Of a stretch of DNA of 33,695 bases, positions 1-12,809 are shown one piece after another. The number at the start of each line of letters is the position of its first letter. The first letter of the stretch is position 1. The notes below the pieces were generated by a model that ran no database searches, had not been told where the DNA came from, and was given only the letters and a program-made list of their open reading frames with translations. The stretch spans positions 1 through 33,695 of the forward strand of contig JAGVZG010000025.1 in assembly GCA_018302765.1 (NCBI GenBank), written 5' to 3'. The DNA comes from Candidatus Woesearchaeota archaeon (lineage in GTDB: Archaea; Nanobdellota; Nanobdellia; SCGC-AAA011-G17; GW2011-AR18). Made by a program: the position numbers and the translations under genes.

Positions 1-1041
1 GTTATTAAGTTAGAGAATGTAAATAACATAATACAGCAGTATATAGGAAGCACGTTAAAATATAATATACAATTGGCAATAATAATAACACAGATTGATG
101 ACGAAGGAGATCACACGCCTATTCCTTATGAAGTTAAGAAAGGAATTTATCCAAATGTCTTTGAAGGTATTAAAGAATTAATCTTAAGCGAACTTGATAA
201 TATATTAAACTTTATTTCAATTGACCAATCATCTAGAGATATAGTAATAAATAATAAACAAGAAGATAATATTAGAACAAAAATAATTAAGTCCTTAGAA
301 AACAACCAAGTAAATTTCTCATATTCCAGAGGATTCCTGTTCTTTATAAAACCAAAAATAGAATTTTATCAGGAATGCCTTATTGACAGGAAAACTTTCA
401 ATCTGCCAAGAACTTATAAAATAACTTATCAGACCATAGTCAAGTCTGAAGGAAAACCTGGTAAGTTAGCCCTGCAAGCAGCAGAAGAACAAGTACTAAT
501 TCCAGAAGCTTCAACGGTAGAAGATCCAAAAAACTGGATAATTCTTCCAGCAAATAATAAAGTTGGGAATTCTTCCTATCCAAATATATTAGTTTCAACA
601 GAAAGATCACACTCAAACAATAAATGGGGTGAATGCCAAACTTTGCTCCACAGTGAACAAGAATTTATGCTTACAATAAGGCAGTTTGTTGATTTCATCA
701 ATTTATTAAGGTCTGGAAATGTAAAATATGCAGACGGTTCTAAAATAGCTAAAAGAAAAATAAAGAAAATTTTAAATGAAATAATAAAAGTAAGAGAACC
801 ATCGAGAGCTGAATGGCTTGATGCTGGAATAGACTTAGATTACTGGCTGTCAAATTCAACTTCCTGGGGAATTCCTAAAACTAATATCCCAAATGGTAGT
901 TTATATTATTGGCATCCAAGAGATACAGCTGTCGTTAGGTTCGGGGTCAATTCTGGCGGGGTCGGCTTGAACTGTGGCGGGAATCCTCGGGGCTCGGGCT
1001 CGGGGTTGTGGGTACGTCGCGCAAAAATTTTTAGGCAATAA
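1..1041 (+). CDS. Putative DGR target (variable) protein with C-terminal CLec-like domain; 5'-partial
   Basis: Frame 1 is open from base 1 (VIKLENVNN...), so the TTG at 73 is probably not the true start. The C-terminus AVVRFGVNSGGVGLNCGGNPRGSGSGLWVRR matches the 'RF.A.S....L.C..NP..S.S.LGVR' tail of DPANN DGR variable proteins. Confidence 0.7.
   Translation, partial: VIKLENVNNIIQQYIGSTLKYNIQLAIIITQIDDEGDHTPIPYEVKKGIYPNVFEGIKELILSELDNILNFISIDQSSRDIVINNKQEDNIRTKIIKSLENNQVNFSYSRGFLFFIKPKIEFYQECLIDRKTFNLPRTYKITYQTIVKSEGKPGKLALQAAEEQVLIPEASTVEDPKNWIILPANNKVGNSSYPNILVSTERSHSNNKWGECQTLLHSEQEFMLTIRQFVDFINLLRSGNVKYADGSKIAKRKIKKILNEIIKVREPSRAEWLDAGIDLDYWLSNSTSWGIPKTNIPNGSLYYWHPRDTAVVRFGVNSGGVGLNCGGNPRGSGSGLWVRRAKIFRQ
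928..1022 (+). other. Putative DGR variable region (VR)
   Basis: Bases 931-1020 are 59/90 G+C with only 8 A, in a ~28% GC background. GGC/GTC/GGG codons sit where AAC-type template codons would be expected. Confidence 0.65.
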
Positions 1042-1045
1042 TTTT

Positions 1046-2932
1046 TTACACAACGTTTACATAGACTTTCTTAACGTCTTTTATTTTATTTATTCTAGAA
1101 ATAACTTCATTTAATTTATCTAAGCTTCCAACATCTGCAGTAAATACACATTCAACATTACTGTCTTTTAATATTTTACATTTAGCACCATTTATCAGTA
1201 CAAATTTATTTATACTGTTTAGGATTTCCTTAAATAAACCAGGCCTGTCTTTTGCATCAACTGTTATTTTAACAGGTTCTTTAAATTTTTCTAGCCAACT
1301 AATTTTGATCTTGTTTTTACTAATTTTTCCAATTGATGTACAGTTAATCTTATGAACCATCATTTTGACATTACTATTTTTAATTCCAATTATTTTATCA
1401 CCAGGTAAAGGTTTGCAGCATAAAGCCAGTTTAACTTTTAGTTTTTTATCGCCTTCAAATACAAGTAAGATTTCACCAATATCTTTTTTAATTTCTTCAT
1501 AAGTGGAATAAATCCTTGTAGTAATTTTGCCCAATTCTTTTAAGGCATGTTTGATTTTTGTTCTTCCCTTTTCTGTTTTTGCAAATTTCAGCCATTCTCT
1601 GCTTGGTTTTTGAGTCTTAGAAGTCAATACCTCAACAACGTCACCATTATCAAGCTTCTCCTTCAAAGATGCAAAAACACCATTTATTCTTGCACCTATA
1701 CAATGATCACCTAAATCACTATGAACAGAATAAGCAAAATCTATTACAGTTGCGCCGCTTGGAAGTTCAACAACTTTTCCTTTTGGTGTAAAAGCAAAAA
1801 ACTCATCGCCAAAGAAGTCAACATTAAATTTGTTTTCAGCATCTTTATTCTCAACAAGCTGTTTAAGCCAGCTTAGTTTTCTGTCAAATTCATTTTCATG
1901 ACTGACTTTTTTGTAACTAAAATGTGCTGCAATACCTTCTTCAGCCACACCATGCATATCAAAAGTTCTTATCTGGACTTCAAATATTCTGCCTTCATTA
2001 TCAACAACAGAAGTATGCAATGATTGATAGCCATTTGGTTTTGGCATTGCTATGTAATCTTTAAACCTGTTTGGTATAGGCCTAAAATTGTTATGAACAA
2101 TCCTGAGGGCATTATAGCAATCTTCGACATTATTTACTATTACCCTAAAAGCTAAAATATCATAAATATCTTCTAAGTTATGAGTTTTTTCATTAATCTT
2201 CTTATAAATGCTATAAATATGCTTAATCCTTACTTCTAATTCTGCTTCAATTCCCTCTTTCTTAAGAGAAGATTCAATACTATTCTTGATCTTAAACAAG
2301 GCTTTCTCATCACCTTTTCTTATTTTTTCAACTTTGTTCAATATTTGGCTGTAAATCTTTTCATCAAGACACCTAAAAGCCAAGTCTTCCATTTCAGATT
2401 TAATCTTGCCAAGTCCCAATCTATAAGCCAATGGTGCATAAATATCCATAACTTCTTTTGCAATTCTCTTTCTTTCATTTTGAGGTAAGAAATCTATTTC
2501 TCTTAGATTCACAATTTTATCGCATAATTTTATTAACAATGCCCTTATGTCTCTGGAAGCAGCCAGCATAACTTTCCTTAAGCCTTCAATGTCTTTGGTA
2601 TTTTTTGTTATATTTTTTTTAATTTCCCCCATTCTTTCTATATTTTCCAGAATTTCAGCAATGTCTCTTCCAAATAACCTTGTTATTTCTTTTATATTGC
2701 CACCTTTGTTTAAAATGCCATGCATAAGTGCCGCGGCTATAGAATTCTCATCTAATTTCAAATTAGCTGCTTCATAAGCAACATCTAAATAATGTTCTGT
2801 CCAGGGTTTGCCAGAAGCCCTTGTTTTTTCATCAACAACACTGCTGGAATATTTGTATGTTTTCTCAAGTAAATCAATATTAACTTCTTTATTATATCTC
2901 ATAACTTTTTTTATTAAGTCTTTAAAATGCAT
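1046..2932 (-). CDS. rel: Long RelA/SpoT homolog (HD*-SYNTH-TGS-ZFD-ACT); synthetase motifs intact, hydrolase degenerate
   Basis: Synthetase motifs RIKHIYSIYKK, DILAFRVIV, RFKDYIAMPKPNGYQSLHT and EVQIRT..MH..AEEGIAAH. TGS FTPKG..VELP.GAT.IDFAY.VHSDLG. ZFD CCKPLPGD...H..C. ACT DRPGL. The HD motif reads AAALMHGIL. Confidence 0.95.
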   Translation of the reverse strand: MHFKDLIKKVMRYNKEVNIDLLEKTYKYSSSVVDEKTRASGKPWTEHYLDVAYEAANLKLDENSIAAALMHGILNKGGNIKEITRLFGRDIAEILENIERMGEIKKNITKNTKDIEGLRKVMLAASRDIRALLIKLCDKIVNLREIDFLPQNERKRIAKEVMDIYAPLAYRLGLGKIKSEMEDLAFRCLDEKIYSQILNKVEKIRKGDEKALFKIKNSIESSLKKEGIEAELEVRIKHIYSIYKKINEKTHNLEDIYDILAFRVIVNNVEDCYNALRIVHNNFRPIPNRFKDYIAMPKPNGYQSLHTSVVDNEGRIFEVQIRTFDMHGVAEEGIAAHFSYKKVSHENEFDRKLSWLKQLVENKDAENKFNVDFFGDEFFAFTPKGKVVELPSGATVIDFAYSVHSDLGDHCIGARINGVFASLKEKLDNGDVVEVLTSKTQKPSREWLKFAKTEKGRTKIKHALKELGKITTRIYSTYEEIKKDIGEILLVFEGDKKLKVKLALCCKPLPGDKIIGIKNSNVKMMVHKINCTSIGKISKNKIKISWLEKFKEPVKITVDAKDRPGLFKEILNSINKFVLINGAKCKILKDSNVECVFTADVGSLDKLNEVISRINKIKDVKKVYVNVV

Positions 2933-12722: not shown

Positions 12723-12809
12723 TGCACTAGCCGGGATTTGAACCCGGATGAAGAGCTAACTTCTAAATACCATTGGAAGGCTCTCATGCTACCATTGCAT
12801 CACTAGTGC
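12723..12809 (-). tRNA. tRNA-Gly(TCC) with a 16-nt canonical 37/38 intron (12758-12773)
   Basis: GCACTAG/CTAGTGC acceptor, AGAGC-CTTCCA|A-GCTCT anticodon arm, BHB central helix CTTC/GAAG. Confidence 0.93.

What the first reader, a model, noticed from the sequence alone, without database searches (positions are those of the whole stretch)
1..1046. Orphan DGR variable protein with a heavily mutagenised, A-depleted VR
Seen: the last ~95 nt of the ORF jump to 66% GC and 9% A, with GGC/GGG/GTC codons. Known: DGRs mutate adenines of a template repeat, typically AAC codons, into a C-terminal CLec VR, and DPANN DGR targets end in a similar RF..S...L.C..NP..S...LGVR motif. Inference: this gene is a DGR target. 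I found no RT or TR copy in the window, so the cassette is either just left of base 1 or acts in trans.
Basis: partly seen in the sequence, partly recalled or inferred. Interest (0 to 1): 0.75.

Follow-up and report, generated by a model that had tools for sequence, protein, structure and literature searches.

The report
Remote DGR target gene, spliced template
The GC-rich tail of this small archaeal gene is a genuine hypermutation cassette written by a diversity-generating retroelement that lies on another contig. That is ordinary for these archaea, except that the template carries a tRNA-type mini-intron that is missing from the gene copy.

Summary
Observation confirmed. Window 928-1022 is 66% GC and 8% A, and it holds the GC-richest 95-nt stretch of this 1.02-Mb, 30%-GC DPANN (Woesearchaeota-like) genome.

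Interpretation supported. The genome's only DGR cassette lies on contig C26: RT-16 RNA 173-369, template repeat (TR) 367-473, reverse transcriptase (RT) 527-1594.
- Window 929-1014 matches the TR at 62 of 62 non-adenine sites. It differs at 16 of 24 TR adenines, all A>G (P about 8e-12).
- The match needs 21 nt of the TR (C26:437-457) to be removed. The only placement with no non-A mismatch and no invariant VR base opposite a TR adenine has the geometry of an archaeal bulge-helix-bulge (BHB) intron.
- In 53 related loci with a TR/VR pair, 15 carry 23 such TR-only inserts. Sixteen obey the same cut rule, against 9% of random placements.
- The protein's C-terminal domain is a C-type lectin fold; the best match is a DGR variable protein.

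Caveats:
- The RT has an in-frame TGA in this assembly, and an intact allele exists in other assemblies.
- Only three VR alleles recur across assemblies, so ongoing diversification is not shown.
- The window's copy lacks 39 codons that other assemblies and four runs contain.

This scan noted spliced DGR templates before, in this genome and at least eight others. I found no paper describing them.

The parts
1..1041 (+). Target (variable-protein) gene: 346 codons plus stop. Only the start codon is missing, and it lies in the 3 nt left of base 1.
   Evidence: ORF list. Contig C12's last 99 nt equal the window's first 99 nt. The codon before base 1 is ATA in C12 and ATG in C21/C8. Relatives start MVIKLENV. 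No Pfam or NCBIfam match. 55 homologues, mostly of about 250 aa; the one that carries an organism name is from a Woesearchaeota archaeon.
1..495 (+). N-terminal alpha/beta domain of unknown function (about residues 1-165), absent from the approximately 250-aa family members.
   Evidence: Model of the intact form, pLDDT 81-94 up to residue 150, with a low-confidence stretch at 151-180 (lowest block 161-170, mean 44). The short homologues cover only the C-terminal half.
508..1038 (+). C-type lectin-fold domain that carries the VR at its C-terminal end.
   Evidence: VIA-align on the model of the intact form P0062, residues 171-386: TaqVP 5vf4 Z 9.4, TvpA 2y3c Z 7.3, Mtd 1yu0 Z 7.3, AvpA 5ioo Z 7.1. 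Most of the 50 rows shown are C-type lectin domains, the rest mostly bacterial lectin-fold (FGE-type) proteins and DGR variable proteins.
825..826 (+). Junction of an in-frame 39-codon (117-nt) deletion relative to the intact 386-aa form; 2-nt microhomology (CT).
   Evidence: Alignment with P0062 and cluster members. In four sequencing runs every contig reaching 825 or 824 runs on into the missing segment, and none bridges the junction (tables 7 and 8). The model of the deleted form drops to mean pLDDT 46-71 over residues 291-340, against 93-97 over the matching residues of the intact form.
929..1014 (+). Variable repeat (VR), homologous to the spliced TR (C26:367-436 plus 458-473). Changed sites run from 943 to 1012.
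   Evidence: 24 TR-adenine sites, 16 changed, all A>G. 0 of 62 non-adenine sites changed. Hypergeometric P 7.6e-12.
998..999 (+). Exon-exon junction 'scar': the point where 21 nt of the TR (C26:437-457) are absent from the VR.
   Evidence: Gapped alignments. Placement analysis (my reading). The same gap is in the other two VRs that match this TR.
1006..1034 (+). Invariant 3' element (IMH-like, contains TGGGTA opposite TGAATA in the TR). All of it is shared with the two VRs written by this TR, and its last 23 nt (1012-1034) also with the C5-end/C12-start copy; it encodes L-W-V-R-R-A-K-I-F.
   Evidence: Alignment of all VR copies. The 22-23-nt exact matches in C12, C24 and C26. The same element is in the closest relative L012. 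Paul 2015 reports IMH TGGGGT and IMH* TGGAAT in Nanoarchaeota DGRs.

Best explanation
The window's ORF encodes a two-domain protein. Its C-terminal C-type-lectin-fold domain ends in a DGR variable repeat (window 929-1014).

This VR was written in trans by mutagenic retrohoming from the only TR in the genome, which lies on contig C26 beside an RT-16 structured RNA and a DGR-clade RT. The steps are:
1. The TR region is transcribed.
2. A 21-nt bulge-helix-bulge mini-intron (C26:437-457) is removed, most likely by the host tRNA-splicing endonuclease and the RtcB ligase.
3. The RT copies the spliced RNA and misreads adenines. In this clade the change is mostly A>G, which explains the GC-rich, A-poor patch.
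4. The cDNA replaces the VR up to the invariant 3' element (IMH-like, 1006-1034).

Shown here: the TR/VR relation, the RT clade, the fold, the absence of the 21 nt from all three VRs, the BHB geometry and its recurrence in relatives, and the presence of EndA and RtcB genes.

Inferred: that removal happens at the RNA level by EndA/RtcB, and the order of the steps.

Current state: in this assembly the RT carries a nonsense codon, and this gene copy has an ATA in place of the start codon on one joining contig and lacks 39 codons. The VR seen here is therefore most likely a static allele. An intact RT allele circulates in the same or related populations.
For: TR and RT:
- They were found by whole-genome search.
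- Spliced TR against window VR: 16 of 24 A sites changed, 0 of 62 non-A sites changed, P 7.6e-12.
- Two further VRs (C24 and the C26 start) fit the same TR, with 12 and 17 A changes and 1 and 0 non-A changes.
- The RT's best solved relative is the BPP-1 DGR RT 8ub7 at E 1.6e-37, against about 1e-19 for group II intron and retron-type RTs. The LGNLTSQ motif is present.
- Thousands of DPANN homologues exist.

Fold: C-type lectin fold, Z 9.4 to TaqVP.

Same genome: the TR contig's depth tracks the window flank's depth in four runs (7.68 vs 7.78, 23.8 vs 28.2, 8.43 vs 11.2, 3.71 vs 4.5).

Intron:
- Only one placement of the 21-nt gap gives zero non-A mismatches and puts no invariant VR base opposite a TR adenine.
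- That placement has a 4-bp helix CUCG/CGAG flanked by the bulges AA|A and AC|C, which is the BHB cut rule.
- In 53 related TR/VR pairs, 15 loci hold 23 TR-only inserts of 15-44 nt. Sixteen obey the strict rule, against 9% in the control.
- These show 8 different central helices and covarying inner helices of 2-7 bp. Insert lengths are often not multiples of 3.
- EndA and RtcB genes are present.

Clade mutation spectrum at TR adenines: A>G 485, A>T 206, A>C 37. Non-A changes: 30 of 3421 sites.
Against: - No RNA data exist for this organism, so splicing is inferred from DNA only.
- In this TR the BHB is weak. The inner helix has 2 bp and there is essentially no outer helix. Minimum-free-energy folding prefers another pairing and is no better than shuffles.
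- Seven of 23 inserts in relatives fail the strict rule.
- No significant hairpin lies downstream of the VR.
- No Avd gene was found.
- The RT has an in-frame TGA at codon 49 in this assembly.
- The VR1 allele was not recovered in the Logan contigs of the four runs laid.
Confidence: 0.85

Rival explanations
1. The VR is a live target. The intact RT allele (W49) in the population still rewrites window 929-1014, and the three alleles seen are only the dominant ones.
For: - A full-length 355-aa RT, identical except for W at codon 49, is on 13 contigs from JGI, Logan and ENA.
- The window's VR keeps the same 3' element as the VR next to the cassette.
- The three VRs differ from each other only at TR-adenine sites.
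- Contigs drop rare variants (tool note).
Against: - Across 15 cluster members of this gene body and 3 full-length members of the paralogue, only the same three VR alleles occur.
- The four runs from 2014-2016 show no further allele.
- Truncated 212-aa RT gene calls, consistent with the TGA allele, are on 14 contigs, including the long ones.
- This copy of the gene has a 39-codon deletion and, on one joining contig, no ATG.
Confidence: 0.3
2. The 21 nt are not spliced out of the RNA. Either the RT jumps across the base of the hairpin while copying, or the insert entered the TR DNA after the last homing events.
For: - No RNA evidence is available.
- Wu et al. 2018 ascribe TR/VR length differences to template slippage next to AAC.
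- In this TR the predicted structure is weak.
Against: - 16 of 23 inserts in 15 related loci have the staggered cut positions of the splicing endonuclease (after the 2nd base of each 3-nt bulge around a 4-bp helix), against 9% in the control.
- Both helices show compensatory changes.
- Independent late insertions would not share this geometry.
- Slippage between the CTCGA repeats of this TR would remove 27 nt, not 21 nt (my reading).
Confidence: 0.12
3. This is not a DGR product. It is a Gly-rich, GC-rich C-terminus that arose by ordinary divergence or gene conversion among paralogues.
For: - The gene body is multi-copy and the assemblies are partly chimeric.
- VR1 changes are all A>G and all-or-none within codons, which is odd for independent per-site mutagenesis.
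Against: - All 16 differences from the TR fall on adenines, with none at 62 other sites (P about 8e-12).
- A DGR RT and the RT-16 RNA flank the TR.
- The fold and the family are those of DGR variable proteins.
Confidence: 0.02

Closest known systems
DGRs of Nanoarchaeota and other DPANN archaea (Paul et al. 2015, PMC4372165; variable protein AvpA, PDB 5ioo)
   Same: - Small-genome groundwater archaeon.
- RT of the same clade: homologues are named Woesearchaeota, Nanoarchaeota or Nanoarchaeia.
- VR at the C-terminus of a C-type lectin-fold protein.
- IMH/IMH* pair of the TGGGGT/TGGAAT type; here it is TGGGTA/TGAATA.
- Remote or 'fragmentary' targets elsewhere in the genome.
   Different: - The TR carries a BHB mini-intron that is absent from the VRs. 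This is not mentioned in that paper or in any paper found.
- An extra N-terminal domain.
- No GRA-loop hairpin was detected after the VR.
Bordetella phage BPP-1 DGR (Mtd, bRT, Avd), the prototype
   Same: - Adenine-specific TR-to-VR information transfer.
- RT clade: 8ub7 is the best solved match.
- Lectin-fold target: Mtd 1yu0, Z 7.3.
- A 3' IMH-like element.
- From my own knowledge: a self-splicing td intron engineered into the BPP-1 TR was removed before transfer (Guo et al. 2008). That is the laboratory analogue of what is seen here.
   Different: - No Avd.
- An RT-16 RNA lies 5' of the TR, rather than the RT-10 motif between TR and RT.
- Strong A>G bias.
- Natural host-dependent intron in the TR.
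- Several targets in trans.
Archaeal bulge-helix-bulge introns of tRNA, rRNA and a few mRNAs (e.g. cbf5; my own knowledge)
   Same: A 4-bp central helix flanked by 3-nt bulges, with the missing segment bounded after the 2nd bulge base on both sides. The genome encodes EndA and RtcB.
   Different: - The host RNA is a retroelement template, not a tRNA, rRNA or mRNA.
- The outer helix has only 0-2 bp (a relaxed, HBh'-like form).
- Splicing is inferred, not observed.
TR/VR length differences catalogued by Wu et al. 2018 (PMC5758913)
   Same: TR longer than VR in about 7% of DGRs, including an 'extreme example'.
   Different: Those were ascribed to slippage at AAC repeats. Here the inserts are hairpins of 15-44 nt with BHB cut geometry and covariation.

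Membership tests
Diversity-generating retroelement (target/VR) | TR/VR pair whose differences fall on TR adenines | tested here: met
   16 of 24 A sites changed, 0 of 62 non-A sites changed, P 7.6e-12, after removing C26:437-457.
Diversity-generating retroelement (target/VR) | DGR-clade reverse transcriptase with the [I/L/V]GxxxSQ motif in the same genome | tested here: met
   C26:527-1594 has LGNLTSQ. Best PDB match is the BPP-1 bRT 8ub7 at E 1.6e-37. However, codon 49 is TGA in this assembly, and an intact allele exists elsewhere.
Diversity-generating retroelement (target/VR) | VR at the 3' end of the target ORF, followed by an IMH element that differs from IMH* in the TR | tested here: met
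   The VR ends 25 nt before the stop codon. TGGGTA (VR) stands opposite TGAATA (TR). All of 1006-1034 is shared with the two VRs written by this TR, and its last 23 nt also with the C5-end/C12-start copy. Compare Paul 2015.
Diversity-generating retroelement (target/VR) | Hairpin/cruciform downstream of the VR | tested here: inconclusive
   DNA folds of three VR 3' regions are no better than shuffles (z -0.5, +0.9, -1.0).
Diversity-generating retroelement (target/VR) | Accessory protein Avd | tested here: not met
   No PF05635 match in the genome. No ORF fits between the VR and the TR on C26. Avd is not universal in DGRs (my own knowledge), so this does not exclude membership.
Diversity-generating retroelement (target/VR) | Observed hypervariation of the VR within a population | tested here: not met
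   Only three VR alleles occur, equal to the three VRs of this genome, over 15 plus 3 full-length cluster members and four runs. The data are contigs, which hide rare variants.
C-type lectin-fold DGR variable proteins | CLec fold with the VR in the C-terminal ligand-binding part | tested here: met
   Model pLDDT 89. Residues 171-386 against TaqVP Z 9.4, TvpA 7.3, Mtd 7.3, AvpA 7.1. Most rows are C-type lectin domains; the rest are mostly other lectin-fold proteins and DGR variable proteins. Foldseek alone gave only weak CTLD rows.
Archaeal bulge-helix-bulge intron | 4-bp central helix flanked by two 3-nt bulges, cut after the 2nd bulge base | tested here: met
   CUCG/CGAG with AA|A and AC|C at the only parsimonious placement. 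The same holds in 16 of 23 inserts of relatives, against 9% in the control.
Archaeal bulge-helix-bulge intron | Flanking outer and inner helices | tested here: inconclusive
   The inner helix has 2 bp here (2-7 bp in relatives). The outer helix has 0-2 bp. The MFE fold does not pick out the motif. It resembles relaxed forms.
Archaeal bulge-helix-bulge intron | Removal at the RNA level by the splicing endonuclease and ligase | not testable with these tools
   No RNA run holds the locus. EndA and RtcB genes are present.

The most novel reading that the evidence does not exclude
The template RNA that wrote this VR has to be processed by the host's tRNA-splicing endonuclease and ligase before the DGR reverse transcriptase copies it. 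This would be a natural, host-dependent 'spliced template' step. It is widespread in DPANN DGRs (15 of 53 loci here, with up to three introns per TR) and is not described in the literature I could search.
Probability: 0.7. Interest if true: 0.75.

Novelty: new variant of a known kind. Interest (0 to 1): 0.55.

Why it matters
As a DGR target the gene is one more example of a kind already known in DPANN archaea.

The system behind it adds something. The VR in the window carries the exon-exon junction of a template that is interrupted by a tRNA-type intron. If that is confirmed, it ties a retroelement's information flow to the host tRNA-splicing machinery. It would also be natural proof that the template passes through RNA, and it would explain TR/VR length differences that had been put down to polymerase slippage.

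There is a practical point too. DGR finders that expect collinear TR/VR pairs will mis-score or miss such cassettes.

The polymorphic RT stop codon, together with the fixed VR alleles, suggests that these elements are switched off in part of a natural population.

Tried and rejected
- A pattern scan of metagenome contigs for the RT stop-codon site found nothing.
- No RNA holder was listed among the sequencing runs, so splicing and expression could not be tested.
- In the four runs laid, the VR core was covered only by the VR3 allele and by the TR contig. The window's own VR1 was not recovered in Logan contigs. This proves nothing about its frequency.
- Pfam and NCBIfam gave no family for the target protein.
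- Foldseek against the PDB gave no match at E <= 0.001. VIA-align was needed.
- No SSU rRNA is in the assembly.
- No second TR was found for the second group of VR-like tails at C5:98521-98590, the C5 end/C12 start and C9:17853-17997.
- Only one RT-16 RNA is in the genome.
- I considered TGA recoding and rejected it. TGA ends 120 of 637 long ORFs, and reading it as sense adds little coding length.
- I considered A-to-I editing of the TR RNA as the cause of the A>G-only pattern. I did not pursue it, because the whole clade is A>G-biased but also shows A>T and A>C.
- Slippage between the CTCGA repeats does not give the observed 21-nt gap.
Full report
**1. The observation**

Window 928-1022 has G42, T24, C21 and A8 of 95 bases, which is 66.3% GC and 8.4% A. 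The gene, the window and all 28 contigs of the genome are 28-33% GC. Only six 95-nt stretches in the 1.02-Mb genome reach 60% GC. This one is the highest, and four of the other five are Gly/Ala/Pro-rich low-complexity coding. The stretch lies at the 3' end of ORF 1..1041 (+), which has 346 codons.

**2. The gene and its assembly context**

Contig ends in this assembly overlap by 99 nt. The window (contig C11) starts with the last 99 nt of C12. The ends of C21 and of reverse-complemented C8 also run into the window's first 72 nt.

Only the start codon is missing from the window. It reads ATA in C12 and ATG in C21/C8. Public gene calls of the same gene body split the same way:
- seven full-length forms start MVIKLENV;
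- seven are called from the internal TTG at window 73.

In four sequencing runs (Logan contigs, groundwater and soil metagenomes, 2014-2016) the body 1-825 is present at 100% identity. Its depth is 2.1-3.1 times that of the unique flank 1004-1300. The gene body is therefore probably present in 2-3 copies, collapsed in this assembly.

Relative to the intact 386-aa form (P0062, same VR and same tail), the window lacks 39 codons between 825 and 826. In all four runs the contigs reaching that point run on into the missing segment, and none bridges the junction. The junction has only 2 nt of microhomology, so it is not a k-mer artefact. It is either a minor real allele or an assembly error that I cannot explain.

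With the same alignment, the intact form models at mean pLDDT 89, with 93-97 over residues 331-380, which include the VR. The deleted form drops to 46-71 over the matching residues 291-340. The missing strands therefore probably matter for the fold. This is an inference, because AlphaFold is a weak judge of stability.

**3. The DGR cassette**

A whole-genome search with window 900-1046 found look-alikes on five other contigs. A search with the RVT_1 family found three RT genes.

Contig C26 begins inside a VR copy. It then holds:
- an Rfam RT-16 RNA at 173-369 (79 bits against a cut-off of 50, and the only copy in the genome);
- a TR from 367;
- an RT ORF at 527-1594.

The RT has the DGR motif LGNLTSQ. 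Its best solved relative is the Bordetella phage DGR RT (8ub7) at E 1.6e-37, against about 1e-19 for group II intron and retron-type RTs. It has thousands of homologues, and those that carry a name are from Woesearchaeota, Nanoarchaeota or Nanoarchaeia.

Weinberg et al. 2017 described the RT-1 to RT-19 motifs as RNAs near RT genes and guessed that some work in DGRs. Here RT-16 abuts the 5' end of the TR. No Avd gene was found.

The TR contig's depth follows that of the window's flank in all four runs, which supports one genome.

**4. TR against VR**

The alignment needs a 21-nt gap in each of the three VRs. The gap can be slid over several positions. Only one placement does both of the following:
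- it gives no mismatch at non-adenine sites;
- it puts no invariant VR base opposite a TR adenine.

That placement is exon 1 = C26:367-436, insert = 437-457, exon 2 = 458 onward.

With it, window 929-1014 differs from the TR at 16 of 24 adenine sites (all A>G) and at 0 of 62 other sites (P 7.6e-12).
- The VR on C24 has 12 changed adenines (7 A>T, 5 A>G) and one other change.
- The VR at the start of C26 has 17 of 23 changed (14 A>G, 3 A>T).

Homology ends at TGGGTA (VR) opposite TGAATA (TR). This is the archaeal IMH/IMH* pattern of Paul et al. 2015. It is followed by an invariant element, 1006-1034. All of it is shared with the two VRs written by this TR and with the closest relative's VR. Its last 23 nt are also shared with the C5-end/C12-start copy.

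The gene is a DGR target served in trans. There is no RT or TR in the 33.7-kb window or in the 31.5-kb C12.

**5. The 21-nt insert**

At the chosen placement, the four bases before the last two of exon 1 (CUCG) pair perfectly with insert bases 16-19 (CGAG). This leaves the bulges AA|A and AC|C, each cut after its second base. That is the geometry of an archaeal bulge-helix-bulge intron.

In this TR the neighbouring helices are weak: 2 bp inside and practically none outside. Energy folding does not single the motif out.

The comparative evidence carries the case. I fetched 80 related RT loci and aligned each upstream TR to its VR.
- 53 loci gave a clear pair.
- 15 of them carry 23 TR-only inserts of 15-44 nt, with up to three in one TR.
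- 16 inserts obey the strict rule at a placement compatible with the VR, against 9% of random placements.
- They use eight different central helices (CUCG/CGAG, CUCG/CGGG, UGCG/CGCA, AUGA/UCAU, GGUG/CAUC, CAGG/CCUG, CACG/CGUG, ACGC/GCGU).
- Their inner helices of 2-7 bp have unrelated sequences.
- Many insert lengths are not multiples of three.

The genome encodes the splicing endonuclease and RtcB. ARAGORN in intron mode calls introns in 20 tRNA genes, some surely spurious.

I therefore think the TR RNA is spliced by host enzymes before it is copied. This is inferred, because no RNA run holds the locus.

I found no paper that links DGRs to BHB introns or to the splicing endonuclease. Wu et al. 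2018 list TR/VR length differences and suggest slippage. Earlier notes of this scan report the same thing for this TR and for at least eight other genomes. My analysis of this TR and of the 53 loci was made independently of their details.

**6. The GC-rich patch explained**

Over the 53 related pairs, 728 of 1404 TR-adenine sites are changed. The changes are A>G 485, A>T 206 and A>C 37. Only 30 of 3421 other sites are changed.

The clade's RT thus turns an A-rich template into a G-rich VR, which stands out in a 30%-GC genome. The window's VR is at the far end of this bias.
- All 16 changes are A>G (about 0.0015 by chance at the clade's rate).
- Each of the seven AAY codons is either fully changed to GGC or fully kept.

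I have no explanation for this beyond selection for glycine.

**7. The protein**

The target has no Pfam or NCBIfam match. Its 55 homologues are mostly proteins of about 250 aa that cover the C-terminal half.

The model of the intact form has two domains. Residues 171-386 match C-type lectin domains throughout the VIA-align list. The best match is the Thermus DGR variable protein TaqVP (Z 9.4), and TvpA, Mtd and the nanoarchaeal AvpA are at Z 7.1-7.3.

**8. Is it active?**

In this assembly RT codon 49 is TGA. The genome uses TGA as a stop. An identical full-length RT with W49 is on 13 public contigs. Truncated calls that start at the first GTG after the stop are on 14 contigs. Both alleles therefore appear to exist.

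Across 15 cluster members of this gene body and 3 full-length members of the C24-type paralogue, only the three VR alleles of this genome occur, in various and partly chimeric combinations. The four runs add no new allele.

Contigs hide rare variants, so activity is not excluded. Nothing shows it either.

**9. Verdict**

This is a genuine remote DGR target of a known DPANN kind. Its template is unusual because it carries a BHB mini-intron. The VR in the window marks the spliced junction at 998|999. The copy in this assembly looks decayed or mis-assembled, and the element's RT is knocked out here.

Noticed in passing
window 1046-2932 (-): A full-length long RelA/SpoT homologue (HD_4, RelA_SpoT, TGS, AH/RIS and ACT domains) lies convergent to the target gene in what is otherwise a DPANN archaeal genome. 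It is possibly a bacterial acquisition.
   Followed up: partly
L009 (C26) 173-369 (+): An Rfam RT-16 RNA (RF03019, 79 bits) sits directly 5' of the TR. It is the only copy in the genome. It may play the priming or scaffold role that Avd and the spacer RNA play in BPP-1.
   Followed up: partly
L009 (C26) 671-673: The DGR RT has an in-frame TGA at codon 49. Public assemblies hold both a full-length W49 form (13 contigs) and truncated calls (14 contigs).
   Followed up: partly
window 943-1012: All 16 changed adenines are A>G. Each of the seven AAY codons is either fully changed to GGC or fully kept, with none mixed. This is unexplained.
   Followed up: partly
L010 (C10) 979-1818 (-): A second DGR-type RT that is only a C-terminal half (it starts just before LGNLTSQ) and carries a C-terminal extension. 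It lies directly downstream of an ATPase-like gene whose translation contains a long homing-endonuclease-like insert. It is probably a remnant.
   Followed up: no
L011 (C5) 1063-2016 (+): A third RT, retron-like with a QGSP motif, not of DGR type. Earlier scan notes call it a thumbless retron-like RT.
   Followed up: no
C5:98521-98590 (-), C5 end = C12 start, C9:17853-17997 (-): A second group of VR-like tails. They share the 3' element but differ from the C26 TR at non-adenine sites, and no TR for them is in the assembly. The C9 copy looks almost unmutated (A-rich).
   Followed up: partly
C24:7886-8935 (-): The paralogue that carries VR2 is frameshifted just upstream of its VR in this assembly (346-aa call P0070). 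Other assemblies have an intact 388-aa form.
   Followed up: partly
window 1-99 and contigs C12, C21, C8: Three contigs converge on the window's first bases. The upstream sequence has a TTTATAA box about 27 nt before the start codon, and the gene body has 2-3 times the depth of its flank. This points to several near-identical copies collapsed into one contig.
   Followed up: partly
window 12723-12809 (-): A tRNA-Trp of 87 nt, long enough to hold an intron. ARAGORN in intron mode calls introns in 20 tRNA genes genome-wide, some doubtful.
   Followed up: no
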